From: a bacterium
GTDB lineage: Bacteria; Patescibacteriota; Microgenomatia; Daviesbacterales; UBA10151
Reading direction: 5' to 3'
NCBI GenBank assembly: GCA_021786105.1
Contig: JAJYNW010000026.1
Location: 3,481 to 67,480, forward strand
DNA length: 64,000 nt
Shown here piece after piece: positions 36,309 to 51,677 of this stretch (the stretch's first letter is position 1; each line of letters opens with the position of its first letter). Under the pieces are notes generated by a model. That model worked only from the letters and a program-made list of their open reading frames with translations. It did not search any database and had not been told where the DNA came from. Both the position numbers and the translations under genes were made by a program.

Positions 36309-36318
36309 ATATGTAAAT

Positions 36319-36347
36319 ATCATATATGATGCTGTAGTTTTTGTCAA
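36319..36347 (-). promoter_or_regulatory. Sigma70-like promoter TTGACA-17-TATGAT for the PadR operon
   Basis: Read on minus strand: tgtcaa 36342-36347, atcata 36319-36324; the self-palindromic CATATATG appears twice at the transcript start. Confidence 0.4.
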
Positions 36348-36516
36348 CGGAAAATGAGGAACAAGATTACACCAATACCAATAATTAAAATCACACTTAT
36401 AACCCAAGCAAAATAATTAGTTTCGCTTCTGCGTTCTTCGATAGCACTGTAACTAAATGGCAGTTTTTCTTCTTTCTTGAAAAACTTTCTCATCTTTAAA
36501 CTATTTTAGCAAAAAC

Positions 36517-38250: not shown

Positions 38251-38253
38251 TTT

Positions 38254-38670: not shown

Positions 38671-38701
38671 AGTATTGCATTGGAAAGCATGGTATTACTT
38701 C

Positions 38702-39202: not shown

Positions 39203-39284
39203 AAGATACTTTATGATTGTAGCTGTAAATGGTAGTTAACTTCGATAAGTTTCCTGTCAGCTTCTGTTAGTTACCGTAATTTCC

Positions 39285-39641
39285 TTGTACGAAATATCAA
39301 TAAATAATGATATACTGATTTTATCTATGAATTCTACCCAGCTACAACTTGAGGCAAAATTATTTAAAGGCTTTGGCGATCCGTCTCGTCTTGCGATATT
39401 GGAAGTTATTGCAGAGAAACCAATCACTGTTTCAGAAATTGTAGAGCAAACGGAATTTTCTCAACCAAATGTCTCAATGCACTTAGCCTGTCTTTTGGAT
39501 TGCGGGTTAGTCCAAAAAAGGAAAGAAGGTAGAAATATCTATTACCAACTTTCAGGAGACGAAGTAAAAGAAGTAATAAATACTGCCAGAAAAATTATCA
39601 GCGCTCATTCAAAAGAGTTGTTTGAGTGCACCAGATATTAA
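39285..39641 (+). CDS. ArsR/SmtB-family metalloregulator
   Basis: LAILEVIAEKPITVSEIVEQ...QPNVSMHLACLLDCGLV HTH with Cys pair. Confidence 0.8.
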   Translation: MYEISINNDILILSMNSTQLQLEAKLFKGFGDPSRLAILEVIAEKPITVSEIVEQTEFSQPNVSMHLACLLDCGLVQKRKEGRNIYYQLSGDEVKEVINTARKIISAHSKELFECTRY

Positions 39642-39653
39642 GATAATAAGAAT

Positions 39654-41549
39654 TTGACTCATACTATCGCAATGGGAAAAATAATTGCTTATTTGCATAA
39701 TCGGAAAGTTGCTACTTCAGCCGCAAGCTGGCTTGTGCTTATTCTTACAATTTTTCTCGGATACCTCGGGGTTGAATTAAAATATCTGATTCCGGTTTAT
39801 CTTACCGGCATAATTGTTGGCGGATTTTTCTTTGGCAGAGAAGCGGTTGAAAAGCTCTTCAAGGGAAAAGTTGGCATTGAACTTTTGATGTCAGTGGGTA
39901 TTGTTGGTGCTGCTGCATTAGGAGAATGGCGGGAGTCTCTCCTTCTGGTCGGTCTTTACTCTATCTCAGAAGCTATCGAAAGTTTCATTTCTGATAAAAC
40001 CAGAAATGCTATTCGGTCTCTCATGGATTTAGTGCCTAAGAAGGCGTTAGTAAAGCAAAACGGAAAAACAGAGTATATTTTGGCAGAAAGGCTTCAAGTT
40101 GGCGATATTTTTATTGTCAAAGCCGGTGAGTCAATTGCTACCGATGGTTTTATTTATATAGGTGGTGCTTCTATCAATCAAGCTGCAGTAACTGGTGAGT
40201 CCATCCCTATATTTAAAAAGGAGGGTGAGCCGGTGTTTGCTGGGACTTTGAACGAAGATGGTTATATCGAAGTCAAAGCCACTAAGAAGTTTTCGGAAAA
40301 TACTATCTCCAAGATTATTCGTCTGGTTGAAGAGGCGCAGGAGAGTAAAGGCAAGAGACAGCAGATGGTGGAAAAGTTCGCTTATACATTTTCTCCAATA
40401 GTCTTGGGAGTTTCTATTATTATGCCTTTCGGTCTCCTTCTCTTAGGTTTCCCCTTACCTGATGCTTTGGTGAGAGCAGTCACCTTTGTAGTTGCCGCCT
40501 CTCCTTGTGCCTTTGCGGTATCCGTACCAGTGGCGTTTGCAGCAGCGATAGGAACTTCTGCGAAAAATGGAGTTTTGGTAAAAGGCGGGGTCTATTTAGA
40601 GGAGTTGGCCGATACTAAGATGGTTGCTTTTGACAAAACCGGCACTCTCACGACAGGCAAACCAGTAGTAACAGATACCCTTCCTCTTAATAAGCTAACC
40701 CATAAAAGGTTTTTGCAAATTGCTGGTGGACTGGCTGCCAATTCATCGCATCCTTTGAGCCGAGCGGTTCAAGCAGCACTGCAACAAGAAGAGATAAAAC
40801 CATTAACTGCCACCAATTATCATACAATGGCCGGTGAAGGCGTCAGAGGAGATATAGACGGAAAGACAATTTATCTTGGCAGTCCTAATTTATTCGAAAG
40901 ATTAGGACATACTATAGCGGAGATAAAAGAACTTGAGCAATTCTCTTCTGAAGGTAAAACTGTTGTATTTGCAGGCACAAAAGCAAAACTGCTAGGGTTA
41001 GTTGCTATTGCGGATTCTCCTAGAATTGAAGCAAAAGAAACAATTGGAAAACTTAAAGAGTTAGAAGTTCAAAATGTCATGCTCACGGGTGATCATGAAT
41101 TAGTAGGAAAAAGCATTGGAAAAGAATTGGGAGTGGATAAGATTATTGCCGAGCTGAAACCAGACCAAAAGGTAGAGAAAATTAAAGAATTAAAAAATAA
41201 ATACCAGCATATAGCTATGATTGGTGATGGGATCAACGATGCACCAGCACTAGCCGAATCATCAGTTGGTCTTGCTATGGGAACTGCCGGAACAGATGCC
41301 GCACTTGAGGCTGCGGATGTAGCGATTATGGGCGATGACTTGACTAAAATCCCTTATGCCATTCGGCTCTCCCGATATGCCAAAAAGATAGTTTTCCAAA
41401 ACCTAATTTTTTCAACAGTTCTTCAAGGGGTTGCAATGGTGTTAGCAATCTTCATGCTTTTATCAGTAAGTCAGATATTATTTATTGATGAGTTCGGCGA
41501 AGTGTTAGTTGTCTTAAACGGACTTCGCCTACTCAATGGGAAAGTATAA
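39654..41549 (+). CDS. P1B-type heavy-metal ATPase, SPC motif (P1B-4-like, Co/Zn/Cd class), no HMA domain
   Basis: ASPCAFAVSVP, DKTGTLT, MIGDGINDAPAL motifs. Confidence 0.85.
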   Translation: MTHTIAMGKIIAYLHNRKVATSAASWLVLILTIFLGYLGVELKYLIPVYLTGIIVGGFFFGREAVEKLFKGKVGIELLMSVGIVGAAALGEWRESLLLVGLYSISEAIESFISDKTRNAIRSLMDLVPKKALVKQNGKTEYILAERLQVGDIFIVKAGESIATDGFIYIGGASINQAAVTGESIPIFKKEGEPVFAGTLNEDGYIEVKATKKFSENTISKIIRLVEEAQESKGKRQQMVEKFAYTFSPIVLGVSIIMPFGLLLLGFPLPDALVRAVTFVVAASPCAFAVSVPVAFAAAIGTSAKNGVLVKGGVYLEELADTKMVAFDKTGTLTTGKPVVTDTLPLNKLTHKRFLQIAGGLAANSSHPLSRAVQAALQQEEIKPLTATNYHTMAGEGVRGDIDGKTIYLGSPNLFERLGHTIAEIKELEQFSSEGKTVVFAGTKAKLLGLVAIADSPRIEAKETIGKLKELEVQNVMLTGDHELVGKSIGKELGVDKIIAELKPDQKVEKIKELKNKYQHIAMIGDGINDAPALAESSVGLAMGTAGTDAALEAADVAIMGDDLTKIPYAIRLSRYAKKIVFQNLIFSTVLQGVAMVLAIFMLLSVSQILFIDEFGEVLVVLNGLRLLNGKV

Positions 41550-41571
41550 ATTTGGATGGGAGGTGATAAAC

Positions 41572-41775
41572 ATGATTAAACAAGCGATTAAATATTGGTC
41601 AGAGCATGTTATTTTATCGAGCCTCTCTCACGCTCTGGGAGGATTTGGGGCAGCACTATTGTTGCAACATTATCTAGTTGGCAATGCCTTTTTACCAACG
41701 ATCGTTGGGTGGGTAGCTCTTGGTTTTACGGCAGTTACTCACTTCTTTGCTTATACGAGTAGCAACGGCCGTTAA
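41572..41775 (+). CDS. Small membrane protein
   Basis: ATG after GGGAGGTGATAAAC; two TM segments. Confidence 0.4.
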   Translation: MIKQAIKYWSEHVILSSLSHALGGFGAALLLQHYLVGNAFLPTIVGWVALGFTAVTHFFAYTSSNGR

Positions 41776-41827
41776 GTGAAAGATTTATAATTTTATTTAG
41801 ATCTGCTTACAAAGCAGGAAGAAGTTT

Positions 41828-42766
41828 ATGGCGCTAATGGATGAATTAAAAATAAACCCTCAAGTCGAGGTTGAGAAGATAGAAAAATTTATCTCAACAC
41901 AGCTTGAAGATTTAGGGAAAGATGGAGTTGTTCTAGGGTTAAGTGGAGGATTGGATTCTTCTGTCTGTGCCTATCTATGCACACGGGTATTGAGCAAAGA
42001 TAAAATCTTTACCCTTATTTTACCCGAGAAGGACAACAACCCGCTCAACATGGAGCACGCCGAACTCATCTCAAAAACCTTGCGGTTGACAACAAAAACT
42101 ATAAATCTTACATCCTTCCTTGAACAAATCGGGGTTTACCAGCTTTTTACAGACGAAGAAAGAGGCAATAGAGAAAAAGTGGAAAAGTTGATAAAAGGCC
42201 TGACGAAAGTGCTCAAAACGCCCTCTCTCTACACCACTGGTATGTCTTTTCAGTACGGCGGAAGATTTGGGTTAAAAGAAAAAATAGAAAGAAAGTTTTT
42301 ACTACCCTACTCGAAGAAATTTTTAGCCCTTACTTATGCTAAGGTACGCTTAAGGATGCTGCTTTTATATTATTACGCAGCCCTCAATAACTACTTAGTC
42401 ATAGGAACAACCGACAAGACTGAGTGGACAGTCGGGTTTTATGATAAATACGGAGATGGGGCGAATGATATTACCCTCCTTCGCCATCTTTACAAGACTC
42501 AGATCAGACAGCTTGCCTCTTACTTAGGCGTTCCCAAAGAAATTATCCAAAAACCGTCTTCTGGCGATTTGATAGCGAAGTTACCTAACGAAGTTATCAT
42601 GGGATTTTCTTATGAACAACTTGATCAAATTCTTTACGGCCTAGAAAGGGGTATGCAAGATAAAAATATAGCCAAGGAGGTGGGTGTCGATATACGGTCA
42701 ATCCAAGCTATTAAAACAGCAATTATCATGGAGCAAATTAAACGAAAGATGCCCAGACATCTCTAA
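41828..42766 (+). CDS. PP-loop ATPase, NAD+ synthetase (NadE)-like
   Basis: VLGLSGGLDSSV PP-loop with NadE-like context. Confidence 0.6.
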   Translation: MALMDELKINPQVEVEKIEKFISTQLEDLGKDGVVLGLSGGLDSSVCAYLCTRVLSKDKIFTLILPEKDNNPLNMEHAELISKTLRLTTKTINLTSFLEQIGVYQLFTDEERGNREKVEKLIKGLTKVLKTPSLYTTGMSFQYGGRFGLKEKIERKFLLPYSKKFLALTYAKVRLRMLLLYYYAALNNYLVIGTTDKTEWTVGFYDKYGDGANDITLLRHLYKTQIRQLASYLGVPKEIIQKPSSGDLIAKLPNEVIMGFSYEQLDQILYGLERGMQDKNIAKEVGVDIRSIQAIKTAIIMEQIKRKMPRHL

Positions 42767-42786
42767 CATTTTGGGGAACAAAAACT

Positions 42787-43065
42787 ATGTCAAATAAAAT
42801 ACAGGTCAAAAAGCGTGACGGATCACTTGAAGATTTTGATCAAACAAAAATAGCAAGGGTGGTAACTGTTGCTGGATTAACGCACGAACAAGGACAGAAG
42901 CTTGCGGCAGAAATAACTAATTGGGCACAAACCAATTCAAACTCATTTATAACTTCGTTCCAGATTAGAGATAAGGTGATCGAAGAATTACGCAAACTTA
43001 ACCCAAACGCTGCTAATCTTTATGCATGGTACGAAAAAACTAAGGGGGAAAAGTTACATGAGTGA
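42787..43065 (+). CDS. ATP-cone domain protein
   Basis: VKKRDGSLEDFDQTKI ATP-cone start pattern. Confidence 0.45.
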   Translation: MSNKIQVKKRDGSLEDFDQTKIARVVTVAGLTHEQGQKLAAEITNWAQTNSNSFITSFQIRDKVIEELRKLNPNAANLYAWYEKTKGEKLHE

Positions 43066-43339
43066 CTTACAGCTCAAAGACCCTAAAAAACCGTCTGGAC
43101 CTGTTATAGTGCGTGGCTATAAAGTCTATGTAGACAGGAACATCTGCATAGGAGCAGCTACCTGTATTGCCGTTGCCCCCAAAACCTTTGCTCTCGACGA
43201 TGAGGCAAAAGCAGTCATTTTAGATACTGCCGATCAAGAAACTATAGAAACGATAATTATGGCTGCGCAATCTTGCCCTGTAAAAGCAATAATCATCGAA
43301 GATGAGAAGGGACAAAGGGTTTTTCCCGAAATTAAGTAG
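43058..43339 (+). CDS. Ferredoxin (4Fe-4S)
   Basis: CIGAATCIAVAP...CP cluster-binding cysteines; ATG after TAAGGGGGAA. Confidence 0.6.
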   Translation: MSDLQLKDPKKPSGPVIVRGYKVYVDRNICIGAATCIAVAPKTFALDDEAKAVILDTADQETIETIIMAAQSCPVKAIIIEDEKGQRVFPEIK

Positions 43340-43479
43340 TATTACCGATCAATTGTTGGCAGTAAAACGTTTTCTGCTCTTTTGCTTGTACCTATAATCG
43401 GCAGTTAACTTCGATAAACTTTCTGTTGATATTCTATATTCTGCTTACACATAACGTCATTTTTTGATAAAATGAAATT

Positions 43480-44379
43480 ATGAGCGGATCGCATGAGCCA
43501 CCTACCAATTTAGACAATAAATTTAAGATTGGCCTTGTTTTAAATACTAGCTTTACTATTTTTGAATTCATCATGGGGTTTGTATCAGGAAGTTTAGCAC
43601 TAGTATCTGATGCTTCTCATAATTTGACTGATTCACTCTCATTGGTAATTGCCTTTTTGGCAAATAAAGTTTCCCGGCGTTCGGCAAACATTGACAAAAC
43701 CTACGGTTATGGCAGGGTAACTATTTTGGCAGCGCTTATCAATGCATTAATCCTTTTTGCTCTTGCCTTTTATATTTTTTATGAGGCGTACCAGCGGATT
43801 CTAAAACCTGAGCCGGTTGAGGGAGGGATTGTAATGATTGTAGCTTTTGTAGGAACTATCATCAATGGAGCAATTGCCTTTACTTTCTTCAAAAATAGGG
43901 ATGAGTTAAATACTAGAGCAGCTTTTTTAAGCATGGCCTTTGATACTTTGGCTTCAGTTGGCGCACTTCTGGCAGGGTTTATTATTGTTTTGACCGGCAA
44001 GACATTTGTTGATCCATTCATTAGTATTCTGATTGGTATCATGTTGGTCTTTAGCGCCTGGGGTGTAGTCAAAGATGGATTGCATGTCCTACTAGACGGA
44101 GTCCCTGAAGGTATTGATACTGGAAAAGTCAAACAGGCAATTTTAAATATCCCAAACGTTAAAGATCTTGATGATTTACATATTTGGGCAATTTCTTCAA
44201 CTTCTGCCGCCTTGAGTTGCCATTTGGTGATAAAAGAGTGTTCTCTTGCCGAAAGTCTGAGGATAAAGGAAGAGGTTAAAGAAATGTTATCTAGGCAGTT
44301 TCATATAGACCACGCAACGATTGAGATTGAACTAATAGAAGGCCCGCATCACAACGAAAGAACTGATGAGGGTATGTAG
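43480..44379 (+). CDS. Cation diffusion facilitator transporter (CzcD-like)
   Basis: SDASHNLTDSLS motif, 6 TM, C-terminal cytoplasmic domain with His. Confidence 0.85.
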   Translation: MSGSHEPPTNLDNKFKIGLVLNTSFTIFEFIMGFVSGSLALVSDASHNLTDSLSLVIAFLANKVSRRSANIDKTYGYGRVTILAALINALILFALAFYIFYEAYQRILKPEPVEGGIVMIVAFVGTIINGAIAFTFFKNRDELNTRAAFLSMAFDTLASVGALLAGFIIVLTGKTFVDPFISILIGIMLVFSAWGVVKDGLHVLLDGVPEGIDTGKVKQAILNIPNVKDLDDLHIWAISSTSAALSCHLVIKECSLAESLRIKEEVKEMLSRQFHIDHATIEIELIEGPHHNERTDEGM

Positions 44380-44381
44380 AT

Positions 44382-45164
44382 ATGAAAAATTTATTTTCTG
44401 GAAAATGGTTTATTGCTATAAAGGTGCTTCCATGGGTTGTAGGGATTATTCTCCTCAAGCTAGTACTTGATAAATTTGGTTTGGAGCCGTTATCTTTAAG
44501 CCCGCTTTTTAATAGTATCATTGCAGCTAATGTATTTTTGTTAGGATTTCTGCTTGCCGGAACACTGGCTGATTACAAAGAGAGCGAGCGTTTACCAGGA
44601 GAATTGGCAGCCAGTATTGAAACACTGTATGACGAATTTGAAATTACCTACAAGAATAAAAAATCACCTGTTGCTAAAAACGCCATCGCTCTTTTGGGTG
44701 ATTTTAATACCTTGCTTATCAACTGGTTTTATAAAAAAGAACGGACAAAAACGCTGATGGATAAAATATGCCGCTTTAATGATCTTTTTCTTGACCTTGA
44801 ACGCCTCACCCAGCCGAACTTTATTGCCAGACTCAAACAGGAGCAACACAACATTCGTCGCAATCTAATCCGCATACATACAATCAGAGAGACATCATTT
44901 GTTGCGGCTGGTTATGCAGTTGCCGAAATTACGACGGGGCTTCTTATTCTTGGATTTCTTTTTGCCAAAATTGAACCATTCTATGAATCACTTTTCTTTG
45001 TTGGGGCGACAACTTTTTTGATGATTTATATGATTGCGCTTATTAAAGATTTGGATAATCCGTTCGATCACTATACAGACGGAAAAGAGACAACCGTTGT
45101 TTCATTGAAACCCTTGAAAGATGTAGAAGAAAGAATAAAAGAGGAGTTAAAAAGGATAAAATAA
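44382..45164 (+). CDS. Hypothetical membrane protein
   Basis: 4 TM helices; tightly coupled to the CDF gene. Confidence 0.5.
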   Translation: MKNLFSGKWFIAIKVLPWVVGIILLKLVLDKFGLEPLSLSPLFNSIIAANVFLLGFLLAGTLADYKESERLPGELAASIETLYDEFEITYKNKKSPVAKNAIALLGDFNTLLINWFYKKERTKTLMDKICRFNDLFLDLERLTQPNFIARLKQEQHNIRRNLIRIHTIRETSFVAAGYAVAEITTGLLILGFLFAKIEPFYESLFFVGATTFLMIYMIALIKDLDNPFDHYTDGKETTVVSLKPLKDVEERIKEELKRIK

Positions 45165-45174
45165 AGGTGTTCTT

Positions 45175-45552
45175 ATGAAACCTGTAGTCCACGGTGAACT
45201 GGAAATACAAATCCTAAAAATCATCTGGGAGAAAAAAGACTGTTCTCCAAGAGAAGTGTTGGATGAAATTCAGAAAGAAAGGGATATAGCGCTCACCACA
45301 ATATCAACGGTCTTAGGGCGTCTTCATACCAAAAGAGTTTTAATTCGTAAAAAAACCAAGGGGCGAGTGCGTTACTCACCTAAACTTTCCAAAGAAGCCT
45401 ATGGTGCCAATACCGTAAAAGAATTTGTGGGTAGCCTGGTAGATTCTTTTGGAAACACAGCGATTACCTCTTTTGCTAAGGGAGTGAAAGGACTACCAGA
45501 TGACCAATTGAAAAAGTTAATTTATTTACTCAGAAAGTATGAAAATAAATAA
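45175..45552 (+). CDS. BlaI/MecI/CopY-family transcriptional repressor
   Basis: ELEIQILKIIWEK...TISTVLGRLHTKRVL winged helix of penicillinase-repressor family. Confidence 0.8.
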   Translation: MKPVVHGELEIQILKIIWEKKDCSPREVLDEIQKERDIALTTISTVLGRLHTKRVLIRKKTKGRVRYSPKLSKEAYGANTVKEFVGSLVDSFGNTAITSFAKGVKGLPDDQLKKLIYLLRKYENK

Positions 45553-46420
45553 AAACAGTATTGTCTTGAGTTCTTTATTTGTTGGGTTACTTTTCTATTT
45601 TTTGTTCCAAGCAACCCAAATCGCCTCTTTGATTTTAGGAAAGAATGTCTTGATATGTAACTCCTGTCTCCAAACAATCCCCACAATTCTTTTATATTCA
45701 GTCACATCTCTGTTAGGGTTATCCTTAGTTTGTTTTTTATTCGGTCTGGCAAAGACAGTTCATTTTAGGAAAAAACTCTACTTGATTAGCGCTCATTCTC
45801 GCTCTCTTAAGATGATAGAAAAGGAGCATTTACTGGACAGGAAAATAATCGTTTTTTCGCACAAAGACCCGTTAGCTTTTTGCTTGGGAATACTCAAGCC
45901 AAAGATTTATCTTTCTACCAAACTACTTAAAATAATGAACTCATCGGAGCTGGAGGCGGTAATTCTTCACGAAAAACAACATCTACAGGGAAATGACAAC
46001 TTGTTTCTAGTCCTGCCGACTCTACTCAAGACCACCTTCTTTTTCCTGCCGATATTTAGTGACATAGCCCAGAGATTTGAAGTTCAAAAGGAAATTAGAG
46101 CCGATCAAAATGCGATTAAAGAAATTGGTGACAAAAGTGTCCTTATTTCTGCTTTACAAAAAATTCTTTTTACATCTCAGCCCAACTTGGCTTTTGCCAA
46201 TTATTTTTCCAAATTTACTAGCCTTGAGGTAAGAATAAACAGTTTGTTGGGAGAAAGAACAAACCGCCGCCTCATCAGCCTAAATAATCTGGTTATCAGT
46301 TTTGGAATGCTACTTCTGATTGCGACCGTTATCCTTAATAGGGTCGAAATCCACTCCCAGCTTGCCAACTCAGCGCTTCTTTGTCTGGACAAAGGAAATT
46401 GCCAAGGCGCCTGCTACTAA
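45539..46420 (+). CDS. BlaR1/MecR1-like M56 peptidase-family membrane sensor with Cys-rich C-terminus
   Basis: HEKQHLQGND HExxH in M56 context, 4 TM, C-terminal CLDKGNCQGACY. Confidence 0.7.
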   Translation: MKINKNSIVLSSLFVGLLFYFLFQATQIASLILGKNVLICNSCLQTIPTILLYSVTSLLGLSLVCFLFGLAKTVHFRKKLYLISAHSRSLKMIEKEHLLDRKIIVFSHKDPLAFCLGILKPKIYLSTKLLKIMNSSELEAVILHEKQHLQGNDNLFLVLPTLLKTTFFFLPIFSDIAQRFEVQKEIRADQNAIKEIGDKSVLISALQKILFTSQPNLAFANYFSKFTSLEVRINSLLGERTNRRLISLNNLVISFGMLLLIATVILNRVEIHSQLANSALLCLDKGNCQGACY

Positions 46421-46509
46421 ATTCTGCCTACAAAAACCTATTGACTTTTTATCCACTAATTTTCTACAATATGTAGAAGACATTAAAATTTAGAGGTTTA
46501 ATTAATCTT

Positions 46510-47238
46510 ATGAAAAACACCAATAATCTCCTTGTCGCTTTACTTATAATAGTCATTGCATTCTCAGGCTATTTATTTTGGAAGGTTCAGAAACTTGAGC
46601 AAAAGGTCGGCTCTGACAACCAGGCAGCCCAAGTTAAAAGAGAACAGCAGGCAAAAGAAGCTCCGCCACAACCTACACAAAACCTTGACGCTGTACCACC
46701 AGTAACAGATAAAGACCATATCTTAGGAAGTAAAAATGCCGATGTGGTTTTAGTGGAGTATTCTGACTTTGAATGCCCCTTTTGCAAGCGCTTCCATCCC
46801 ACCATGCAACAGGTGGTAAAAGAATACGGCAGTAAAGTCGCCTGGGTATACCGCCAGTATCCTTTAGGCTTCCACGCCAATGCCCAAAAAGAGGCTGAGG
46901 CTTCTGAATGTGCCGCCGAACAAGGTGGTAATGAGGCTTTCTGGAAGTATTCCGACAAAATCATGGAGAGGACTACTTCAAACGGCACAGGTTTTGCTCT
47001 TGATAAGCTTGCGCCACTGGCTACTGAAATTGGACTAGATGCCAATAAATTTAAACAGTGTCTTGATAGTGGCAAGTATACCCAACATATTAAAGACGAT
47101 ATGGCTGGCGGTCAAAAAGCTGGCATTCAGGGAACTCCAGGCACGGTTATCATAGGCAAGAATGGTAAGAAAGAATTTATTGGCGGAGCGCTCCCCTTTG
47201 AACAAATTAAGCCATTGATAGATAAAGTACTGGAGTAA
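46510..47238 (+). CDS. DsbA-like thiol:disulfide oxidoreductase (signal-anchored)
   Basis: EYSDFECPFCKRFHP CxxC in thioredoxin fold. Confidence 0.75.
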   Translation: MKNTNNLLVALLIIVIAFSGYLFWKVQKLEQKVGSDNQAAQVKREQQAKEAPPQPTQNLDAVPPVTDKDHILGSKNADVVLVEYSDFECPFCKRFHPTMQQVVKEYGSKVAWVYRQYPLGFHANAQKEAEASECAAEQGGNEAFWKYSDKIMERTTSNGTGFALDKLAPLATEIGLDANKFKQCLDSGKYTQHIKDDMAGGQKAGIQGTPGTVIIGKNGKKEFIGGALPFEQIKPLIDKVLE

Positions 47239-47261
47239 GTTGAGACATATGACTAATAAAT

Positions 47262-48473
47262 ATGAACATAAACAAACTTCGTCAAGATTTCCCCTTTTTC
47301 CAAAAGACTCTTAACAGGAAACCCATAATTTACTTTGACAATGCCTGCCAGAGCCTTCGACCCCAATCTGTCATAGACGCTGTTGTTAATTACTACCAGG
47401 ATTATCCTGCTTGTGGCGGGAGGAGCATGCACCGTTTAGCTGCCAAAGTTACTCAGAAGTGCGATGAGGCAAGAAGTATTATTGCCAGGTTTGTCGGCGC
47501 TAAGCGTAAAGAGGAGATTATTTTTACCCGCAATACTACGGAAGGGATAAATCTTGTTGCTCATTCGCTAGGACTTCAAAAAGGCGATATTGTGGTTACC
47601 TCTGATAAGGAACATAATTCTAATCTCATCCCCTGGCAAATCTTAGCTAAAAAAATCGGCATTATTCACAAAATAATTCCTTCACGAGAAGAGAACATCT
47701 TTGGCCTTGAAGGATTTAAAAAAGTGATGAATGAAGAGGTAAAACTTGTATCCTTGGGCTTTACTTCCAACTTAGACGGAGTAACCATTCCTGCTTCCGA
47801 AATAATAAAAATTGCCCATCAGTTCGGTGTTTTGGTTCTTCTTGATGTTGCCCAAACCGCTCCACATCATAAGATTGATGTCACTGCACTTGATGTTGAC
47901 TTCCTCGCTTTTTCTGGACATAAAATGCTTGGACCTTCTGGAACTGGTGTTCTTTATGGCAAATATCATCTTTTGGAGAAACTTGAGCCATTTTTGGTAG
48001 GAGGAGATACGGTGGTGTCTTCTACCTATGATTCTCATAAACTACTCCCTCCTCCTGAAAAATTTGAGGCAGGGTTACAAGATTACGCTGGGATTATCGG
48101 GTTGGGAGAGGCGGTTAGATATTTGGAAAAGGTCGGGTTTGAGAATATTACCGAGCAAGAACACACGCTCAATAAGTTTATTAGTAATGAAATTGTAAAT
48201 ATTCCTCATCTTCATATTATTGGACCCGAAGACCCAAGTAAACGAGGTGGTATTGTCTCCTTTTATATCGAGGGAGTAGACTCTCATCAGGTTGCCCTAA
48301 TGCTTGATGAGTCTGCTAATATTATGGTTCGTTCTGGTCAGCACTGCGTTCATTCCTGGTTTGCTAGTAAGAAAATTGCTGGTTCTGTCCGTGCGTCGCT
48401 GTATTTTTATAACACCCAAGAGGAGGCGGAAATCTTTGTTAATCAGTTGAAGAAAGTTATACGGGTATTGTAG
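47262..48473 (+). CDS. Cysteine desulfurase (SufS/class V aminotransferase-like)
   Basis: FSGHKMLGPSGTGVLYG PLP-lysine motif and C-terminal catalytic Cys region (SGQHCV). Confidence 0.85.
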   Translation: MNINKLRQDFPFFQKTLNRKPIIYFDNACQSLRPQSVIDAVVNYYQDYPACGGRSMHRLAAKVTQKCDEARSIIARFVGAKRKEEIIFTRNTTEGINLVAHSLGLQKGDIVVTSDKEHNSNLIPWQILAKKIGIIHKIIPSREENIFGLEGFKKVMNEEVKLVSLGFTSNLDGVTIPASEIIKIAHQFGVLVLLDVAQTAPHHKIDVTALDVDFLAFSGHKMLGPSGTGVLYGKYHLLEKLEPFLVGGDTVVSSTYDSHKLLPPPEKFEAGLQDYAGIIGLGEAVRYLEKVGFENITEQEHTLNKFISNEIVNIPHLHIIGPEDPSKRGGIVSFYIEGVDSHQVALMLDESANIMVRSGQHCVHSWFASKKIAGSVRASLYFYNTQEEAEIFVNQLKKVIRVL

Positions 48474-48476
48474 CTT

Positions 48477-49409
48477 ATGTTTTGTTTATTAGCTCTTATC
48501 GTTTTATCAATTTTAGGCATATTTAGTGCTACCCATAGACAGCTTGCCAAAGAAGCCTTCGACTGTGTATTTCGACGGATTACTTTCCGCCCTTGTACGA
48601 CGGGATTTAAAGAGAAGATGAAGGCAAAACTTACAGGAAAGATTCTCAATCGTTCACCTTTTGTAGCCCGTTTTCTGAACAGACACTTTGAACTTGTCTC
48701 CTGGGTATTTTTTATCCTCATGGTTGCAAGTACCTTTTGGACAGTTAAGGGTGCTTATAACTTTTATCTTTATGGAAGCTGTAATGGTTTAAATGAAACT
48801 GGTTTTTGTGCTTTTGATCCATCGGGTGAGAATAATAAGGTGTCACAGATTGCCACATCGTGTAGCTTAGAAAAACCCTCTGAAAAAGATTTGACATTAA
48901 ACGGTGTTGATCTTAGCATTTTCCCTATTAGGAATCCTGATGCCAAAGATAAAATTATTTTTATTGGCTGTTACGGCTGTGACTATACCCGCAAGGCTTA
49001 CCCTTTGATACAGAAACTTATTGCTAACAATGAAGTTAGTTTCATCTTTGCCCATTTCCCTGTAAAGGACGAGACTAACTTCCTCTCTGAATATGGCTAT
49101 TGTGCCTATAAGCAGGATCAGGAGAGATTCTGGCAGTTCAATGATGCTTTGTTTGCCTCGGATAAGCAAAATTTAGGAAATAAAAATTATGTGGACGGTT
49201 TAGCTTCAAAGATCGGTTATAACTTGACTACGATCGATAGATGTATAGATAGCCAGGAAACTAAAGAGGCCGTGGAAAGACAGTTTCAGGAGATAAGCAA
49301 AACCCATGTTTATGGAACTCCAACCGTGTTTATAAATGGTAAAGTGCTGGTCGGACCGAAGCCCTACCGAGTTTATGAAAGAGCCTTAAAGGGTTGGCGG
49401 TTTTGGTGA
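48477..49409 (+). CDS. Membrane-anchored thioredoxin-fold (DsbA-like) protein
   Basis: N-terminal TM pair with Cys residues; FIGCYGCDY CxxC thioredoxin-like domain. Confidence 0.55.
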   Translation: MFCLLALIVLSILGIFSATHRQLAKEAFDCVFRRITFRPCTTGFKEKMKAKLTGKILNRSPFVARFLNRHFELVSWVFFILMVASTFWTVKGAYNFYLYGSCNGLNETGFCAFDPSGENNKVSQIATSCSLEKPSEKDLTLNGVDLSIFPIRNPDAKDKIIFIGCYGCDYTRKAYPLIQKLIANNEVSFIFAHFPVKDETNFLSEYGYCAYKQDQERFWQFNDALFASDKQNLGNKNYVDGLASKIGYNLTTIDRCIDSQETKEAVERQFQEISKTHVYGTPTVFINGKVLVGPKPYRVYERALKGWRFW

Positions 49410-49521
49410 TTTTAGCAGATGACAATTTTTGACATGATTTTTAGATTTTAGAGAACCGGTAAATATAAAAACTACCATAAACCATAGATTCCTCAATGTT
49501 TTTTAGGTAAAATGTAAACAT

Positions 49522-51429
49522 ATGGAGATAGAAAATGGATTTACAAAAGTAACTAATCTTTTTAAGAACTGTAAAGTTAGTTTAACTGTTCTTTCAGGAA
49601 TAGCTTTAGTTTTTGGTCTTTTCTTAAGTTGGTTTAAAATTGCGCCTCAGCTCTCGCCCTTTTTGTATCTACTATCTTTGGCAAGCGGAGGATTTTATGT
49701 ATATAGAGAGGCGTTTGAAGGTTTCAAAAACAAAGCTTTCTTCAATATTAATCTTTTAGTAACAATAGCATCAATTGGAGCTGTTTTTATTAACCAGTGG
49801 GCAGAAGCAGCCTCAGTTGTTTTCTTCTTTTCACTGGCTGAAATGTTTGAGGAATTCGGTATTAAGCGCTCACAGCAAGCCATAACCAATCTTATTAAGG
49901 AATCACCCCAAAAGGCGAATAAAAAAGAGGTTAATAATATCGTCTCTATCTCTATCGAGGAAGTAAATATTGGTGATATCGTGGTGGTTAAACCAGGAGA
50001 CAAAATCCCATTAGACGGAAAAGTTGTTAAGGGAAATTCTGCAGTTGATGAAGCGGCAATTACTGGGGAATCACTTCCAAAAGAAAAGCTTGTAGGTGAC
50101 TTAGTTTTTGCAGGAACCATGAATATGTCCGGCTACTTGGAGATTAAAATTACAAAAAGGTCGAAAGACAGCGTGTTATCAAAGGTGATTGCAACAATTG
50201 AGGAAGCGCAGGAGAAAAAAGCCCCATCGCAGGAGTTTATTGATAAATTTGCAGCTTATTACACACCTACAGTTGTCATTGGTGCTGTTCTTTTAACCAT
50301 AGTTCCGGTTTTGTTGGGAGGAACATTTACACAGTGGCTGTACCGCTCCTTAACCCTTCTTGTTATTGCCTGTCCTTGCGCGCTTGTTATTTCAACCCCT
50401 GTTTCTGTTGCCTCGGCTATTGGTAGAGCTTCGCAAAAGGGATCACTCATAAAGGGCGGAAAATTTTTAGAAGCAATAGGAAAAGTGAAGGCTATCGCCT
50501 TTGATAAAACAAGAACATTGACAGAAGGTAAACCTATCGTTTCTGACATTCTTACATTTAATGGCTTTTCTAAAGAAGAAGTCCTCGCAGATGCTTGCGG
50601 TATTAGTAAATTTGACACACATCCATTATCTTTTGCCATTAAAGTTAAGGCGGAAGAAGAAAGCATAAACCCTCATATTATGGAGAAGTTTAAGAATACC
50701 CCCGGAAAAGGCTCTAAGGCTAACTGTACTGTATGTGATGATTTAACACACTGTGTTGGTAATCTAAAACTCTTAAACAGTGAAGAAGTAAATACCAAAG
50801 AAGTAGAGCATGTAGTTGAAAATTTGGCCAAGGAAGGCAAGACCACGATTTTAGTAAGTGAGGGTAAAGTAATGATGGGTGTACTAGGCATAACTGACTC
50901 TATCCGTCCAGAAGCCATTGAGACGATTGGACAACTAAAACGGCTTGGTATTTCAAACTTTTCGATTATAAGCGGTGATAATGCTTATGCTGTTGATTAT
51001 GTTGCACAAAAGCTAGGAGTTAATAATACCTTTGCTCAACTTTTGCCTGGGCAGAAATTAGAAACAATCGAAAAACTTAAACAGGAGTATGGAACTGTAT
51101 CGATGGTAGGTGATGGCATCAACGATTCTCCATCCCTTGCCGCCTCTGATGTTGGAATTGCTCTTGGCTCTGCGGGGTCGGACGTTGCCATTGAAACCGC
51201 TGATATTGCCCTTATGGGTGATGATTTAAGAAGGATTCCCTATCTTATTAAGCTGGGAAGACAAACAACTCAAGTAATCAAACAAAATATCTATGCTTCC
51301 CTTGGGATTAAGGCCATCTTTTTAACATTGGGAGTATTTGGGTTAACTCATCTAGGATGGGCAATAGCCGCAGATTCAGGGGTAGCACTCTTGGTAACGC
51401 TAAATGGATTAAGGCTTTTTAGAGCTTAA
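49522..51429 (+). CDS. P1B-type heavy-metal ATPase, CPC motif, no HMA domain; atypical DKTRT phosphorylation motif
   Basis: ACPCALVISTP, MVGDGINDSPSL, but AFDKTRTLTEG (codon aga where gga is expected). Confidence 0.8.
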   Translation: MEIENGFTKVTNLFKNCKVSLTVLSGIALVFGLFLSWFKIAPQLSPFLYLLSLASGGFYVYREAFEGFKNKAFFNINLLVTIASIGAVFINQWAEAASVVFFFSLAEMFEEFGIKRSQQAITNLIKESPQKANKKEVNNIVSISIEEVNIGDIVVVKPGDKIPLDGKVVKGNSAVDEAAITGESLPKEKLVGDLVFAGTMNMSGYLEIKITKRSKDSVLSKVIATIEEAQEKKAPSQEFIDKFAAYYTPTVVIGAVLLTIVPVLLGGTFTQWLYRSLTLLVIACPCALVISTPVSVASAIGRASQKGSLIKGGKFLEAIGKVKAIAFDKTRTLTEGKPIVSDILTFNGFSKEEVLADACGISKFDTHPLSFAIKVKAEEESINPHIMEKFKNTPGKGSKANCTVCDDLTHCVGNLKLLNSEEVNTKEVEHVVENLAKEGKTTILVSEGKVMMGVLGITDSIRPEAIETIGQLKRLGISNFSIISGDNAYAVDYVAQKLGVNNTFAQLLPGQKLETIEKLKQEYGTVSMVGDGINDSPSLAASDVGIALGSAGSDVAIETADIALMGDDLRRIPYLIKLGRQTTQVIKQNIYASLGIKAIFLTLGVFGLTHLGWAIAADSGVALLVTLNGLRLFRA

Positions 51430-51437
51430 TATGATCT

Positions 51438-51677
51438 TTACCTGCTAATCGTTGGTAATAAAACGTTTTCTGCTGGCTTTACGGCTTTTGTAGGCCTCTT
51501 TATAATCTTACCGGCAGAAACTAGATTATCTTTAGGACTTTTCTTTATTTCTTCGGCTTGCGCTTCTGTTACCTCAATAAAACGGCTTTTATTTTCGTCA
51601 GCTATCACAGCGTCAAATTCTGCTTTGACAACAAATTGAATTTCGCCGTTTTCATCAAATTGTATAAAGTGTTTCAT
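51438..51677 (-). CDS. Hypothetical small acidic protein
   Basis: 79-aa ORF ending 4 nt before the next gene. Confidence 0.4.
   Translation of the reverse strand: MKHFIQFDENGEIQFVVKAEFDAVIADENKSRFIEVTEAQAEEIKKSPKDNLVSAGKIIKRPTKAVKPAENVLLPTISR

What the first reader, a model, noticed from the sequence alone, without database searches (positions are those of the whole stretch)
39285..51429. Twelve-kb + strand metal/redox cargo island with an unusual gene mix
The island reads ArsR, an SPC-type P1B ATPase, a small TM protein, a NadE-like PP-loop ATPase, an ATP-cone protein, ferredoxin, CDF, a 4-TM protein, a CopY/BlaI-like repressor, an M56 BlaR1-like sensor with a Cys-rich CLDKGNCQGACY tail, DsbA, SufS-like cysteine desulfurase, a membrane thioredoxin-like protein and a CPC-type P1B ATPase. 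Neither ATPase has an HMA metal-binding domain. A CopY/BlaR1 pair with a Cys-rich sensor C-terminus suggests metal-triggered proteolytic derepression. Oxidative folding and Fe-S/cysteine mobilisation genes embedded in a metal-efflux locus are not a textbook arrangement.
Basis: partly seen in the sequence, partly recalled or inferred. Interest (0 to 1): 0.55.

Follow-up and report, generated by a model that had tools for sequence, protein, structure and literature searches.

The report
CPR metal-efflux and thiol-redox gene block
A 12-kb run of genes in an uncultured candidate-phyla-radiation bacterium joins metal export pumps to disulfide-bond enzymes, and part of it is switched by a stripped-down relative of the penicillin sensor BlaR1 whose sensing part is only a 25-residue cysteine-rich tail, which gives a testable idea of what such orphan sensors detect.

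Summary
All 14 plus-strand genes are real and mostly named correctly. Three corrections apply:
- The repressor is BlaI-type, not CopY, because it has no C-terminal Cys motif.
- ArsR starts at 39327, not 39285.
- The missing HMA domains are normal for these two pump clades.

The host is a Microgenomates (CPR) chromosome with no GC anomaly. The block is a composite of conserved modules:
1. A CmtR-like ArsR with a conserved operator (ATATCA-N8-TGATAT, 39294-39313) and an SPC-type pump.
2. CDF-4TM-BlaI-M56.
3. A promoter carrying a perfect BlaI box (TCTACAATATGTAGA, 46463-46477) that heads dsbA-sufS-memTrx-ZntA-like pump.

The box recurs 47 times in related loci (1.35 expected). It sits either before blaI or after M56, in front of thiol-redox genes.

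The M56 HExxH motif is invariant. The tail motif C-x5-C-x3-C is present in 100 of 147 family representatives.

The modules are linked but shuffled in relatives. SufS-memTrx is paired in 9 of 9 CPR genomes checked.

My reading is a non-canonical BlaIR system that senses extracytoplasmic thiol state, with thiophilic metals as the likely trigger, and controls a DsbA-led operon. The sensed signal is inferred, not shown. I rate it a new variant of a known kind, of moderate interest.

The parts
39211..39257 (+). D1a: 47-nt promoter-like segment, repeated upstream of the CDF gene
   Evidence: Direct repeat family D1, 79% identity with an identical 15-nt core AGTTAACTTCGATAA. Its regulator is unknown.
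39294..39313 (+). ArsR-type operator ATATCA-N8-TGATAT
   Evidence: It is the only perfect site in the window. The same palindrome abuts the arsR start codon in L168, L169/L170 and L171/L018.
39327..39641 (+).
   Evidence: HTH_5, 60 bits. The helix alpha4 Cys pair aligns with CmtR 2jsc: hlaCllDCglv against hlsClrgCglv. There is a C-terminal Cys in ...ELFECTRY.
39654..41549 (+). HMA-less P1B ATPase with SPC in M4 and DEFGE in M6 (P1B-4-like)
   Evidence: Pfam and NCBIfam: passes TIGR01525 and TIGR01512, fails the Cu family cut-off. The best solved relative is sCoaT 7qbz. It belongs to a CPR clade of about 45 clusters with (S/A)PC and (D/H)E(F/G)GE.
41536..41775 (+). Small two-TM protein of 67-79 aa with no family
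   Evidence: ORF, no Pfam hit. A small ORF sits at the equivalent place in L167 and L168.
41828..42766 (+). NAD+ synthetase-like PP-loop ATPase
   Evidence: PF02540, 201 bits; TIGR00552 passed. It is 91% identical and in the same order in L167.
42787..43065 (+). Stand-alone ATP-cone protein
   Evidence: PF03477, 47 bits. 84% identical in L167.
43022..43339 (+). Single-cluster 4Fe-4S ferredoxin
   Evidence: Fer4_13 and Fer4_15. 90% identical in L167, where sufS follows it directly.
43342..43378 (+). D3-left: 37-nt relic resembling the 3' end of the 79-aa minus-strand ORF
   Evidence: Direct repeat of 51438-51474, 81% identity with a 16-nt exact core. The core alone is not beyond chance.
43380..43426 (+). 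D1b: second copy of the promoter-like segment, with TATAAT
43480..44379 (+). CDF metal exporter, ZitB/CzcD-like
   Evidence: Cation_efflux plus ZT_dimer; TIGR01297, 261 bits.
44382..45164 (+). Four-TM protein of unknown family
   Evidence: ORF. Only a sub-threshold Bestrophin-like hit. Not found next to M56 in relatives.
45175..45552 (+). BlaI/MecI-type repressor without a CopY Cys motif
   Evidence: Penicillinase_R, 79.6 bits. A conserved ...TSFAKG... segment lies at the place of the BlaI cleavage site, and there is no CxC tail. The gap to the upstream gene is 10 nt.
45539..46420 (+). Non-canonical BlaR1-like M56 protease/sensor with a Cys loop (C40, C43) and a C-x5-C-x3-C tail (C282, C288, C292)
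   Evidence: PF05569, 58.8 bits. HExxH and C40 are invariant, and the three tail Cys are invariant among the 10 closest homologues. AF2 pLDDT is 80 and the best PDB match is S. aureus BlaR1 8exq. The tail motif occurs in 100 of 147 family representatives.
46441..46477 (+). Promoter-like site (TTGACT-18-TACAAT) overlapped by the BlaI box TCTACAATATGTAGA (46463-46477)
   Evidence: It is among the four highest-scoring promoter-like sites in the region, 10 of 12. It is the only box in the window, scoring 23 bits on a PWM. The same box is stereotyped in relatives.
46510..47238 (+). Membrane-anchored DsbA-like oxidoreductase (CPFC)
   Evidence: Thioredoxin_4 and DSBA. It is the first gene after the box here and in 8 relatives.
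47262..48473 (+). SufS-like group II cysteine desulfurase
   Evidence: Aminotran_5, 392 bits. TIGR01979 scores 443, just under its cut-off of 475. It is paired with memTrx in 9 of 9 genomes.
48477..49409 (+). memTrx: two-TM protein with a cytoplasmic Cys pair and an external DsbA-like domain (CYGC)
   Evidence: Thioredoxin_4 and DSBA. More than 1100 homologues at 58-86% identity in several CPR phyla, and all 10 Cys are invariant in 121 sequences.
49522..51429 (+). HMA-less P1B-2 (ZntA-like) ATPase: CPC, M5 Lys, M6 Asp
   Evidence: Pfam and NCBIfam. M5-M6 aligns with ZntA 4umv, keeping the K693 and D714 equivalents. Orthologues sit next to SufS-memTrx in WWE3 and Falkowbacteria.
51438..51474 (+). 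D3-right: 3' end of the 79-aa minus-strand ORF, repeated after the ferredoxin gene
51483..51496 (+). Terminator-like hairpin, the only plus-strand one after the M56 gene
   Evidence: This is a consensus match only.

Best explanation
The block is a composite metal and thiol-stress locus of a Microgenomates (CPR) bacterium. It is built from modules that recur in relatives.

Shown:
- Unit 1 is an autoregulated CmtR-like ArsR plus an HMA-less SPC-type P1B pump. A small TM protein, NadE, an ATP-cone protein and a ferredoxin follow in the same string.
- Unit 2 starts at a second copy of the same promoter-like segment and encodes CDF, a 4-TM protein, BlaI and M56.
- Unit 3 starts at a promoter overlapped by a perfect BlaI-family palindrome. 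It runs dsbA-sufS-memTrx-ZntA-like pump.
- BlaI/M56 is a non-canonical BlaIR pair. It has the BlaR1 membrane and zinc-protease body, but no penicillin-binding domain.

Inferred:
- By homology with BlaR1 topology, the 25-residue C-terminal tail (C282, C288, C292) and the TM1-TM2 loop (C40) face outward and form a small cysteine-held sensor.
- When these cysteines are not correctly disulfide-bonded, the cytoplasmic protease cleaves BlaI at its conserved Ser-Phe. That lifts repression of the DsbA-led operon, and restored oxidation shuts the system off.
- The cysteines could be left unpaired because oxidising capacity is short, or because thiophilic metals (Cu, Zn, Cd) cap or mis-pair them.
- Metals are the likely natural trigger. 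This would explain why the pair travels with P1B pumps of different specificity.
For: Gene identities.

BlaR1 relationship:
- PF05569 scores above its cut-off.
- HExxH is invariant in 20 of 20 and in 150 of 150 sequences.
- The AF2 model's best PDB match is BlaR1 8exq/8exp.

Operator:
- TCTACA-ATA-TGTAGA overlaps the -10 of one of the four highest-scoring promoter-like sites in the region.
- CTACAN3TGTAG occurs 47 times in 1.32 Mb of window plus relatives, against 1.35 in shuffles. Almost all sites lie just before blaI or just after M56.
- Among 21 Cys-tail loci, 14 have the downstream box, against 5 of 61 loci whose M56 lacks the tail (Fisher p = 4e-7).

Output genes in Cys-tail loci where a gene could be read after the box:
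- DsbA-like in 8.
- In the Roizmanbacteria loci the box precedes an unclassified CxxC membrane protein.
- Two further loci whose box falls outside the counted 250-nt span have a DsbD_2/cupredoxin protein (L026) or a DsbA followed by CcdA (L040) after it.
- In L171 the string after the box continues DsbA-DsbD_2/cupredoxin-CopZ-CopA-DsbA-CDF-ZntA-like.

Sensor:
- C40 is invariant in the 20-sequence alignment, and the three tail Cys are invariant among the 10 closest homologues.
- The tail motif occurs in 100 of 147 representatives.
- AF2 predicts a strand at 36-39, a hairpin at 270-282 and a helix at 287-291 that carries C-x3-C.
- In BlaR1 an outer loop docks on the outer sensor and relays to the protease (PMC9834060).

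Other support:
- BlaI orthologues keep ...S-F-A... at the cleavage position.
- P1B pumps lie within 10 kb of 12 of 21 Cys-tail M56 genes, against 10 of 61 others (p = 0.001).
- ArsR unit.
- Pump types.
Against: - No experiment or transcript data exist. Operon limits rest on gene spacing and consensus scans whose totals are not above chance.
- Tail pLDDT is only 57-72.
- In this window blaI has no box of its own, unlike many relatives.
- The pumps next to the pair differ in type (ZntA-like, CopA, CopB), so no single metal is implied.
- About a third of family representatives lack the tail motif.
- Loci are phylogenetically related, so the counts are not independent.
- NadE, ATP-cone and ferredoxin have no evident role and are conserved in position only in one close relative, L167.
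Confidence: 0.45

Rival explanations
1. The Cys-rich tail, with the E-x-H before it, is a direct extracytoplasmic metal-binding site. Metal binding itself activates the protease, and the purpose of the circuit is to induce metal efflux.
For: - P1B pumps are enriched near Cys-tail M56 genes.
- The ZntA-like pump lies in the same string as the box-controlled dsbA here. CopZ-CopA-CDF-ZntA-like genes do so in L171.
- E-x-H precedes the motif in 39 of 100 representatives.
- Three or four clustered thiols make typical Cu(I), Zn or Cd sites. This is established coordination chemistry.
- DsbA-like ScsC binds Cu(I) tightly (PMC8900818).
Against: - The first gene after the box is a thiol-redox or CxxC protein, never a pump.
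- The CDF and the SPC pump have no box.
- The neighbouring pumps have different specificities.
- With a DsbA next door, four clustered external cysteines are expected to be disulfide-bonded.
- The repressor lacks the CopY metal site.
Confidence: 0.3
2. The cysteines only staple a small structural cap. The real signal is something else in the envelope, such as a peptide, a lipid or a cell-wall fragment, as is presumed for other non-canonical BlaIR systems.
For: [quoted passage not shown]
- About a third of close family representatives lack the motif.
- In BlaR1 the protease autocleaves spontaneously.
Against: - A 25-residue tail leaves little room for a ligand pocket.
- The regulon is dominated by thiol-disulfide proteins.
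- The downstream box is strongly tied to the Cys-tail subfamily, 14 of 21 against 5 of 61.
Confidence: 0.15
3. There is no functional unit. The genes are merely packed co-directionally in a small streamlined genome, or were swept together on a mobile element, and each works independently.
For: - Gene order differs in every relative.
- NadE, ATP-cone and ferredoxin are linked only in L167.
- Serine recombinases and tRNA genes lie near the module in the window, L007, L171 and L173-L175.
- Direct repeats D1 and D3 bracket the two halves.
Against: The sub-modules are conserved far beyond close relatives:
- BlaI-M56-box-DsbA across Microgenomates.
- SufS-memTrx in 9 of 9 genomes.
- SufS-memTrx with the ZntA-like pump in 6 of 9 genomes, spanning WWE3, Falkowbacteria and Microgenomates.
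- ArsR plus operator plus SPC pump in 5 genomes.
Confidence: 0.1

Closest known systems
BlaR1/BlaI and MecR1/MecI of Staphylococcus aureus
   Same: - The membrane M56 zinc protease has HExxH and the same fold.
- The repressor gene lies immediately upstream.
- The operator is a palindrome of TACA/TGTA type that overlaps a promoter.
- A Phe is conserved at the repressor's cleavage position. That the staphylococcal site is N|F is from memory.
   Different: - There is no penicillin-binding (transpeptidase) sensor domain. A 25-residue Cys-rich tail stands in its place.
- The controlled genes are dsbA and other thiol-redox genes, not a beta-lactamase or PBP.
- The spacer between half-sites is 3 nt.
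Non-canonical BlaIR systems: CenIR of C. difficile, BlaIR of M. tuberculosis and M. abscessus, PvmSR of P. aeruginosa
   Same: The M56 protein lacks the beta-lactam domain and is paired with a BlaI-like repressor. The signal is unknown (PMC13492132; preprint).
   Different: - A defined, conserved Cys motif in the outer tail and loop.
- A conserved operator.
- A thiol-oxidoreductase regulon.
- Linkage to P1B pumps.
- The host is CPR.
CopY-CopA/CopZ copper operons of Firmicutes
   Same: The repressor family and operator type are the same (PMC11672702), and both are associated with P1B pumps.
   Different: - CopY is defined by a C-terminal CxCx4CxC (or CxC) metal site. That site is absent here and in 33 CPR orthologues.
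- CopY needs no protease.
- No TACAnnTGTA cop box is present.
CmtR-CmtA (Rv1994c operon) of M. tuberculosis
   Same: - It is an ArsR-family repressor with two cysteines in DNA-binding helix alpha4 and a C-terminal Cys.
- It is autoregulated and is followed by a P1B pump.
   Different: - Overall identity is low.
- The metal specificity is untested.
- The operator ATATCA-N8-TGATAT was defined here only by conservation.
P1B-4 (sCoaT, CzcP) and P1B-2 (ZntA) ATPases
   Same: - Pump 1: SPC in M4, no HMBD, and sCoaT is the best solved relative.
- Pump 2: CPC plus the ZntA Lys693 and Asp714 equivalents.
   Different: - Pump 1 has DEFGE where P1B-4 has HEGxT. The His proposed as a built-in counter-ion is replaced by Asp throughout the nearest CPR clade.
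- Pump 2 lacks the N-terminal metal-binding domain.
Scs (suppressor of copper sensitivity) proteins and DsbA-DsbB/VKOR oxidative folding
   Same: - DsbA-like and DsbD-like proteins are genetically tied to metal stress (ScsC, PMC8900818).
- The DsbA carries a CxxC site.
   Different: - No DsbB or VKOR homologue is in the block.
- The conserved partner is a cysteine desulfurase plus a two-TM DsbA-like protein with ten invariant cysteines.

Membership tests
BlaI/MecI/CopY repressors (Penicillinase_R) | Winged-helix Penicillinase_R domain scoring above the Pfam cut-off | tested here: met
   PF03965 scores 79.6 bits against a cut-off of 22.6.
BlaI/MecI/CopY repressors (Penicillinase_R) | Palindromic TACA...TGTA operator at a regulated promoter | tested here: met
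   TCTACA-ATA-TGTAGA at 46463-46477 overlaps the -10. 47 conserved sites occur in relatives against 1.35 expected. Binding was not tested.
CopY subfamily | C-terminal CxCx4CxC (or CxC) metal-binding motif (PMC11672702) | tested here: not met
   The protein ends ...LIYLLRKYENK, with no Cys in the C-terminal half. None of 33 CPR orthologues has CxC.
BlaR1/MecR1 (canonical) | M56 domain with HExxH and the BlaR1 fold | tested here: met
   PF05569 scores 58.8 against a cut-off of 31. HEKQH is invariant. Foldseek's best hits are 8exq and 8exp at probability 1.0.
BlaR1/MecR1 (canonical) | Extracellular penicillin-binding (transpeptidase-like) sensor domain | tested here: not met
   The protein ends 25 residues after the last TM helix. 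The NCBIfam blaR1_generic score is 28 against a cut-off of 400.
BlaR1/MecR1 (canonical) | Cleaves the cognate repressor on signal | not testable with these tools
   Only a conserved S-F-A segment in BlaI orthologues was seen.
P1B-4 ATPase (pump 1) | SPC in M4 | tested here: met
   VAASPCAFAVS.
P1B-4 ATPase (pump 1) | HEGxT in M6 (PMC8880997) | tested here: not met
   DEFGE stands at that place. The next clades have HEFGE, HEGGE or HExSE.
P1B-4 ATPase (pump 1) | No classical N-terminal HMBD | tested here: met
   No HMA hit and no GMxCxxC motif.
P1B-2 ATPase (pump 2, ZntA-like) | CPC in M4, Lys in M5 and Asp in M6 | tested here: met
   IACPCAL. The alignment to ZntA 4umv keeps the K693 and D714 equivalents.
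P1B-2 ATPase (pump 2, ZntA-like) | N-terminal HMA metal-binding domain (usual, not essential) | tested here: not met
   No HMA hit. Its CPR orthologues lack it as well.
ArsR/SmtB, CmtR type | HTH_5 domain, two Cys in helix alpha4, and a C-terminal Cys | tested here: met
   HTH_5 scores 60 bits. The Cys pair aligns with that of CmtR. A C-terminal Cys is present. The metal response was not tested.
DsbA-type oxidoreductase | Thioredoxin fold with CxxC, and exported or membrane-anchored | tested here: met
   Thioredoxin_4 at 90 bits and DSBA at 64 bits. A CPFC site and an N-terminal hydrophobic anchor are visible in the sequence.
SufS cysteine desulfurase | Class V aminotransferase scoring above the SufS model cut-off, with PLP Lys and catalytic Cys | tested here: inconclusive
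   Aminotran_5 scores 392 bits. TIGR01979 scores 443 against a cut-off of 475. SGHK and GQHC motifs are present. No SufBCD, SufE or SufU gene is in the block.
Genomic island / integrative element | Deviant composition | tested here: not met
   GC is 0.38-0.41 inside and outside the block.
Genomic island / integrative element | Integrase or recombinase next to a tRNA gene at one end, with the element absent from relatives | tested here: inconclusive
   - A large serine recombinase at 59717-61234 abuts tRNA-Gly, 8 kb from the block.
- Recombinases follow the module in L007 and L171 (49% identical to each other; tRNA genes follow both) and lie near it in L173-L175.
- The window's flanking genes (PadR, SHOCT, DUF302, PLD) also accompany the module in L167 and L169.
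- No empty site was found.

The most novel reading that the evidence does not exclude
SufS and memTrx together may form a quinone-independent generator of disulfide bonds. memTrx is the two-TM protein with ten invariant cysteines: C3, C30 and C40 on the cytoplasmic side, and a CxxC DsbA-like domain outside.

The proposed chain is:
- The SufS persulfide reacts with a thiol of memTrx to give a disulfide plus H2S. This step is established thiol chemistry.
- The disulfide is relayed outward to DsbA.
- The Cys-tail BlaR1-like protein acts as the feedback sensor that tunes this pathway.

This would explain how CPR bacteria, which lack electron-transport chains, can oxidise exported proteins. It would also explain why sufS is always next to memTrx.
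Probability: 0.1. Interest if true: 0.85.

Novelty: new variant of a known kind. Interest (0 to 1): 0.58.

Why it matters
- Most BlaR-like proteins have no beta-lactam domain, and nobody knows what they sense (PMC13492132). This subfamily has a minimal and strongly conserved sensor of four outer cysteines, a conserved operator and a readable regulon of DsbA and other thiol-redox proteins, often with metal pumps. The signal can therefore be tested directly with simple reporter and peptide experiments.
- The locus also exposes a CPR-wide SufS-memTrx(-ZntA-like pump) module with invariant cysteines and no assigned role. It sits in organisms whose route to disulfide bonds is unclear.
- The modules often lie next to serine recombinases. 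They may therefore move between CPR lineages, which bears on how these tiny genomes acquire stress tolerance.

Tried and rejected
- **Cop box.** TACAnnTGTA has no match in the window. The operator has a 3-nt spacer instead.
- **D1 as the ArsR operator.** I first took the shared 47-nt repeat D1 for the ArsR operator controlling both the arsR and CDF units. I dropped this when the conserved ATATCA-N8-TGATAT palindrome turned up only upstream of arsR, here and in four relatives. D1 is now called a duplicated promoter-like segment with an unknown regulator.
- **NadE, ATP-cone and ferredoxin as passengers.** I treated them as pure passengers after the first synteny scan. L167 keeps them in the same string at 84-91% identity, so their status is open.
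- **Window as a phage genome.** The left-flank genes have 80 relatives in IMG/VR. I rejected the idea because the rest of the window is cellular: TerC, a histidine kinase, MacB, ZIP and GlmS. Only three genes are shared with the phage contigs.
- **Viral relatives of the 391-aa right-flank protein.** None found.
- **Composition.** The GC profile shows no island signal.
- **RNA families.** Rfam found only tRNAs.
- **The first alignment** was too divergent for the locus scan.
- **Literature.** Searches for a DsbA-linked BlaIR system, for CPR disulfide machinery, or for a SufS-DsbA pairing found nothing relevant.
- **The D3 repeat.** Its 16-nt exact core is not beyond chance on its own.

Full report
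**1. Observation**

The interval 39285-51429 holds 14 consecutive plus-strand ORFs. It is bounded on both sides by minus-strand genes.
- ArsR (HTH_5).
- Two P1B ATPases without any HMA hit.
- NAD synthase.
- ATP-cone.
- A single-cluster ferredoxin.
- A CDF (Cation_efflux plus ZT_dimer).
- A Penicillinase_R repressor.
- A Peptidase_M56/M48 protein ending in CLDKGNCQGACY.
- A DsbA-like protein with CPFC.
- A class V aminotransferase close to SufS.
- A membrane DsbA-like protein with CYGC.

The 79-aa and 260-aa membrane proteins have no family.

The same block, with identical M56 protein, is on contigs from at least six other public samples, so it is not an assembly artefact. GC content is 0.38-0.41 inside and outside the block.

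**2. Host and surroundings**

The nearest relatives of the M56 gene lie in Collier-, Roizman-, Levy-, Woese-, Davies- and Chisholmbacteria MAGs. The host is therefore a Microgenomates-group CPR bacterium.

The rest of the window is cellular. It encodes TerC, an S41 peptidase, a histidine kinase, a MacB-type ABC system, GlmS, and also a ZIP transporter (26807-27532) and a second CDF (27808-28665).

The three minus-strand genes just left of the block (36517-39202) are phage-derived:
- The 166-aa protein has 80 relatives at 60-85% identity on IMG/VR contigs.
- On the 66.8-kb contig behind L140, its homologue sits right after the terminase, portal, protease and major head genes.
- Those contigs carry none of the block's genes and share nothing else with the window.

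At 56.9-61.3 kb there are:
- An M23/LysM hydrolase.
- HTH regulators.
- A protein with an HxxGHH segment that I read by eye as an ImmA-type metalloprotease motif; no family search was run on it.
- DUF3800.
- A large serine recombinase whose 3' end overlaps tRNA-Gly.

**3. The BlaI/M56 pair**

*Relationship to BlaR1.*
- The M56 protein scores above the Pfam cut-off.
- HExxH is invariant in 20 homologues and in all 150 best representatives of a full HMMER search.
- An AlphaFold model (pLDDT 80) finds S. aureus BlaR1 as its best solved match.
- The protein stops 25 residues after its last TM helix, so it has no penicillin-binding domain.

*The cysteine motif.*
- The tail carries C282-x5-C288-x3-C292. 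This motif is present in 100 of 147 representatives that have a C-terminal region and in 21 related genomic loci.
- C40, in the TM1-TM2 loop, is invariant.
- In BlaR1 the region after the last TM is outside the cell, and an outer loop docks onto the sensor domain to relay the signal (PMC9834060). By homology, loop and tail here are both outside. This is an inference.
- AF2 predicts a strand at 36-39, a hairpin at 270-282 and a short helix carrying C-x3-C. That pattern is compatible with a small cysteine-held cap.

*The repressor.*
- It is BlaI-type. It has no CopY CxCx4CxC motif (definition from PMC11672702), and neither do any of 33 CPR orthologues.
- The orthologues conserve ...S-F-A... where BlaI and MecI are cut. 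The staphylococcal site itself is from memory.

**4. The operator and the regulon**

*In the window.*
- In the 89-nt gap between M56 and dsbA lies TTGACT-18-TACAAT, one of the four highest-scoring promoter-like sites in the region (10 of 12).
- Its -10 is overlapped by the perfect palindrome TCTACA-ATA-TGTAGA at 46463-46477.
- A position weight matrix finds no second site in the window at 12 bits or more.
- Here blaI-M56 have no box of their own and follow the 4-TM gene after 10 nt.

*In relatives.*
- CTACAN3TGTAG occurs 47 times in 1.32 Mb of window plus 80 related loci, against 1.35 in shuffles.
- The consensus is TACTACA-N3-TGTAGTA.
- The sites fall in two places: a few bases before blaI, and just after M56.
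- Among 21 Cys-tail loci, 14 have the downstream box. Only 5 of 61 loci whose M56 lacks the tail do (p = 4e-7). These loci are related, so the test is generous.

*Genes after the downstream box*:
- A DsbA-like protein in 8 loci.
- An unclassified CxxC membrane protein in the Roizmanbacteria loci.
- L026 (DsbD_2/cupredoxin) and L040 (DsbA then CcdA), whose box falls outside the counted 250-nt span, also have thiol-redox genes after it.

*What follows.*
- In this window the string continues dsbA-sufS-memTrx, then a 113-nt gap, then the ZntA-like pump.
- The only plus-strand terminator-like hairpin after the M56 gene is at 51483-51496.
- In L171 the string after the box is DsbA-DsbD_2/cupredoxin-CopZ-CopA-DsbA-CDF-ZntA-like.

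The direct, conserved output of the pair is therefore extracytoplasmic thiol-redox machinery, and metal pumps ride behind it in some genomes.

**5. The metal units**

*ArsR.*
- It aligns with CmtR (2jsc) so that both alpha4 cysteines coincide, and it has a C-terminal Cys. CmtR uses exactly such a site for Cd (PMC11672702).
- A perfect ATATCA-N8-TGATAT palindrome occurs once in the window, at 39294-39313.
- The same palindrome abuts the arsR start codon in L168, L169/L170 and L171.
- This is the likely ArsR operator. It also places the start at ATG 39327.

*Pump 1.*
- It has SPC in M4, and its best solved relative is the P1B-4 pump sCoaT.
- Its M6 reads DEFGE instead of HEGxT.
- About 45 CPR clusters share (S/A)PC plus (D/H)E(F/G)GE and lack HMA. 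The next relatives are APC/HExSE pumps with HMA.
- P1B-4 pumps lack classical HMBDs anyway (PMC8880997).

*Pump 2.*
- It has CPC and the ZntA Lys693 and Asp714 equivalents.
- Its CPR orthologues also lack HMA.

Both pumps pass the Cd/Zn-family model and fail the copper model.

**6. Is the block a unit?**

Relatives show linked but shuffled modules:
- L167 (pump 1 at 84%): ArsR-pump-DsbA-small-NadE-ATPcone-Fdx-SufS-memTrx-CDF-DUF302-SHOCT, without BlaI/M56.
- L168: ArsR-pump-CDF-small-SufS-memTrx.
- L007: ZntA-like pump-BlaI-M56-DsbA-SufS-memTrx-serine recombinase-tRNA-Gln.
- L171: the long string given in section 4, then ArsR-pump 1 and a serine recombinase 49% identical to that of L007, followed by tRNAs.

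Within the window two repeats divide the block:
- A 47-nt repeat (D1: 39211-39257 and 43380-43426).
- A 37-nt repeat (D3: 43342-43378 and 51438-51474). One D3 copy is the 3' end of the 79-aa minus-strand ORF.

Together they bracket two halves, ArsR...Fdx and CDF...pump 2. This suggests stepwise assembly at one junction. The D3 exact core alone is within chance.

**7. SufS-memTrx**

- memTrx has more than 1100 homologues at 58-86% identity in several CPR phyla.
- All ten cysteines are invariant in 121 sequences.
- A SufS-like gene (59-83% identical) stands directly upstream, or one gene away, in 9 of 9 genomes examined.
- The HMA-less ZntA-like pump is adjacent in 6 of those 9, including WWE3 and Falkowbacteria.
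- In two genomes the pair sits in housekeeping surroundings without a pump.

The 'Fe-S gene in a metal locus' is thus half of a conserved CPR pair of unknown role. I found no paper on it.

**8. Mechanism and what is known**

*Shown:* the gene identities, the conserved operators, the stereotyped box positions, the conserved cysteines and the synteny.

*Inferred:* the topology, proteolytic derepression, the operon limits and the signal.

I commit to thiol-state sensing. The outer cysteines are normally disulfide-bonded by DsbA. When they are left free, capped or mis-paired, most plausibly by thiophilic metals, the protease removes BlaI and the DsbA-led operon rises. This gives negative feedback. 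I put about 0.45 on this.

The rivals are:
- Direct metal binding as the activating event: 0.3.
- An unrelated envelope signal: 0.15.
- Mere juxtaposition of independent genes: 0.1.

Non-canonical BlaIR systems are already recognised as the majority of the family, with unknown signals (PMC13492132). This is therefore a new variant of a known kind, not a new kind.

**9. Verdict**

- Interest is moderate (0.58). The locus offers a directly testable signal hypothesis for an orphan sensor class, and it exposes a CPR-wide SufS-memTrx module.
- The most novel reading not excluded is a desulfurase-driven, quinone-independent disulfide generator. I give it about 0.1.

Noticed in passing
window 54500-56500: A 2-kb stretch with GC about 0.50 against 0.39 elsewhere, with no ORF of 90 aa or more. 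The minus strand is purine-rich, with recurring GCGAGCGA-like motifs. Folded as RNA it is far more stable than shuffles (z = -7.1 and -4.4). There is no Rfam match even at E <= 1 and no DNA match in phage genomes. It may be a large structured RNA.
   Followed up: partly
window 36517-39202 (minus strand): A three-gene cassette (166, 138 and 577 aa) of phage origin. The 166-aa protein has 80 relatives at 60-85% identity on IMG/VR contigs. In L140 its homologue follows the terminase, portal, protease and major head genes. The window has none of those head genes, so this is a remnant or a domesticated piece.
   Followed up: yes
window 56933-61498: A lysogeny-like module: an M23/LysM hydrolase, divergent HTH regulators, DUF3800, and a protein with an HxxGHH segment that I read by eye as ImmA-like (not scanned against any family). 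A 505-aa large serine recombinase follows, and its 3' end overlaps tRNA-Gly (61213-61287). tRNA-Phe follows. It may mark the end of an integrated element that could include the metal block.
   Followed up: partly
window 61340-61422: A second copy of the 5' part of tRNA-Gly. The 21-nt CCACTGAGTTACTCCCGCAAA is repeated exactly, and ACGAGGCACTCT is also repeated. About 43 nt interrupt it, and ARAGORN does not call it. It could be a tRNA fragment left by integration or an interrupted tRNA.
   Followed up: no
window 26807-28665 and 34602-36407: More metal-related genes lie outside the finding: a ZIP importer, a second CDF on the minus strand, and SHOCT, DUF302 and PadR genes. Homologues of the last three accompany the module in L167, L169 and L017.
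   Followed up: partly
L016:11867-12403, L020:3854-4390, L022:11797-12372, L030:11563-12132, L015:11871-13016: Small membrane proteins (178-191 aa, or fused to a Cys-rich domain) with a conserved G-x-G-C-x-x-C ... P-x-x-G-x-E motif and no Pfam family. They lie directly after the box-controlled DsbA gene in Levy- and Woesebacteria-type loci. They are candidates for an unrecognised DsbA partner.
   Followed up: partly
L012:3998-5491, L011:13739-15199, L014:1073-2527, L021:2947-4434: In Roizmanbacteria the gene after the BlaI box is a 485-497-aa protein. It has the same CxxC membrane domain plus a C-terminal domain with RPCCGNSTAFPDCNHG, and it ends GGGCG(V/A). It has no Pfam family.
   Followed up: partly
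window 47262-49409 and L172-L177: The SufS-like gene and the 310-aa membrane DsbA-like gene are neighbours in 9 of 9 CPR genomes checked. All ten cysteines of the latter are invariant in 121 sequences. One exact memTrx protein (P0327) is indexed in 127 blocks of the public collection, which hints at wide spread or mobility.
   Followed up: yes
window 43342-43426, 39211-39257, 51438-51474: Two direct repeats (D1 of 47 nt, D3 of 37 nt) bracket the two halves of the block. D3 is a relic of the 3' end of the 79-aa ORF. The pattern suggests that cassette B (CDF to pump 2) was added at the same junction as cassette A. Statistical support is modest.
   Followed up: partly
L010:2517-8845: One Collierbacteria contig carries two BlaI-M56 pairs. 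The first has no C-x5-C-x3-C tail, and its box precedes BlaI-M56, then a 505-aa protein, then a 1132-aa CopA-type pump.
   Followed up: no
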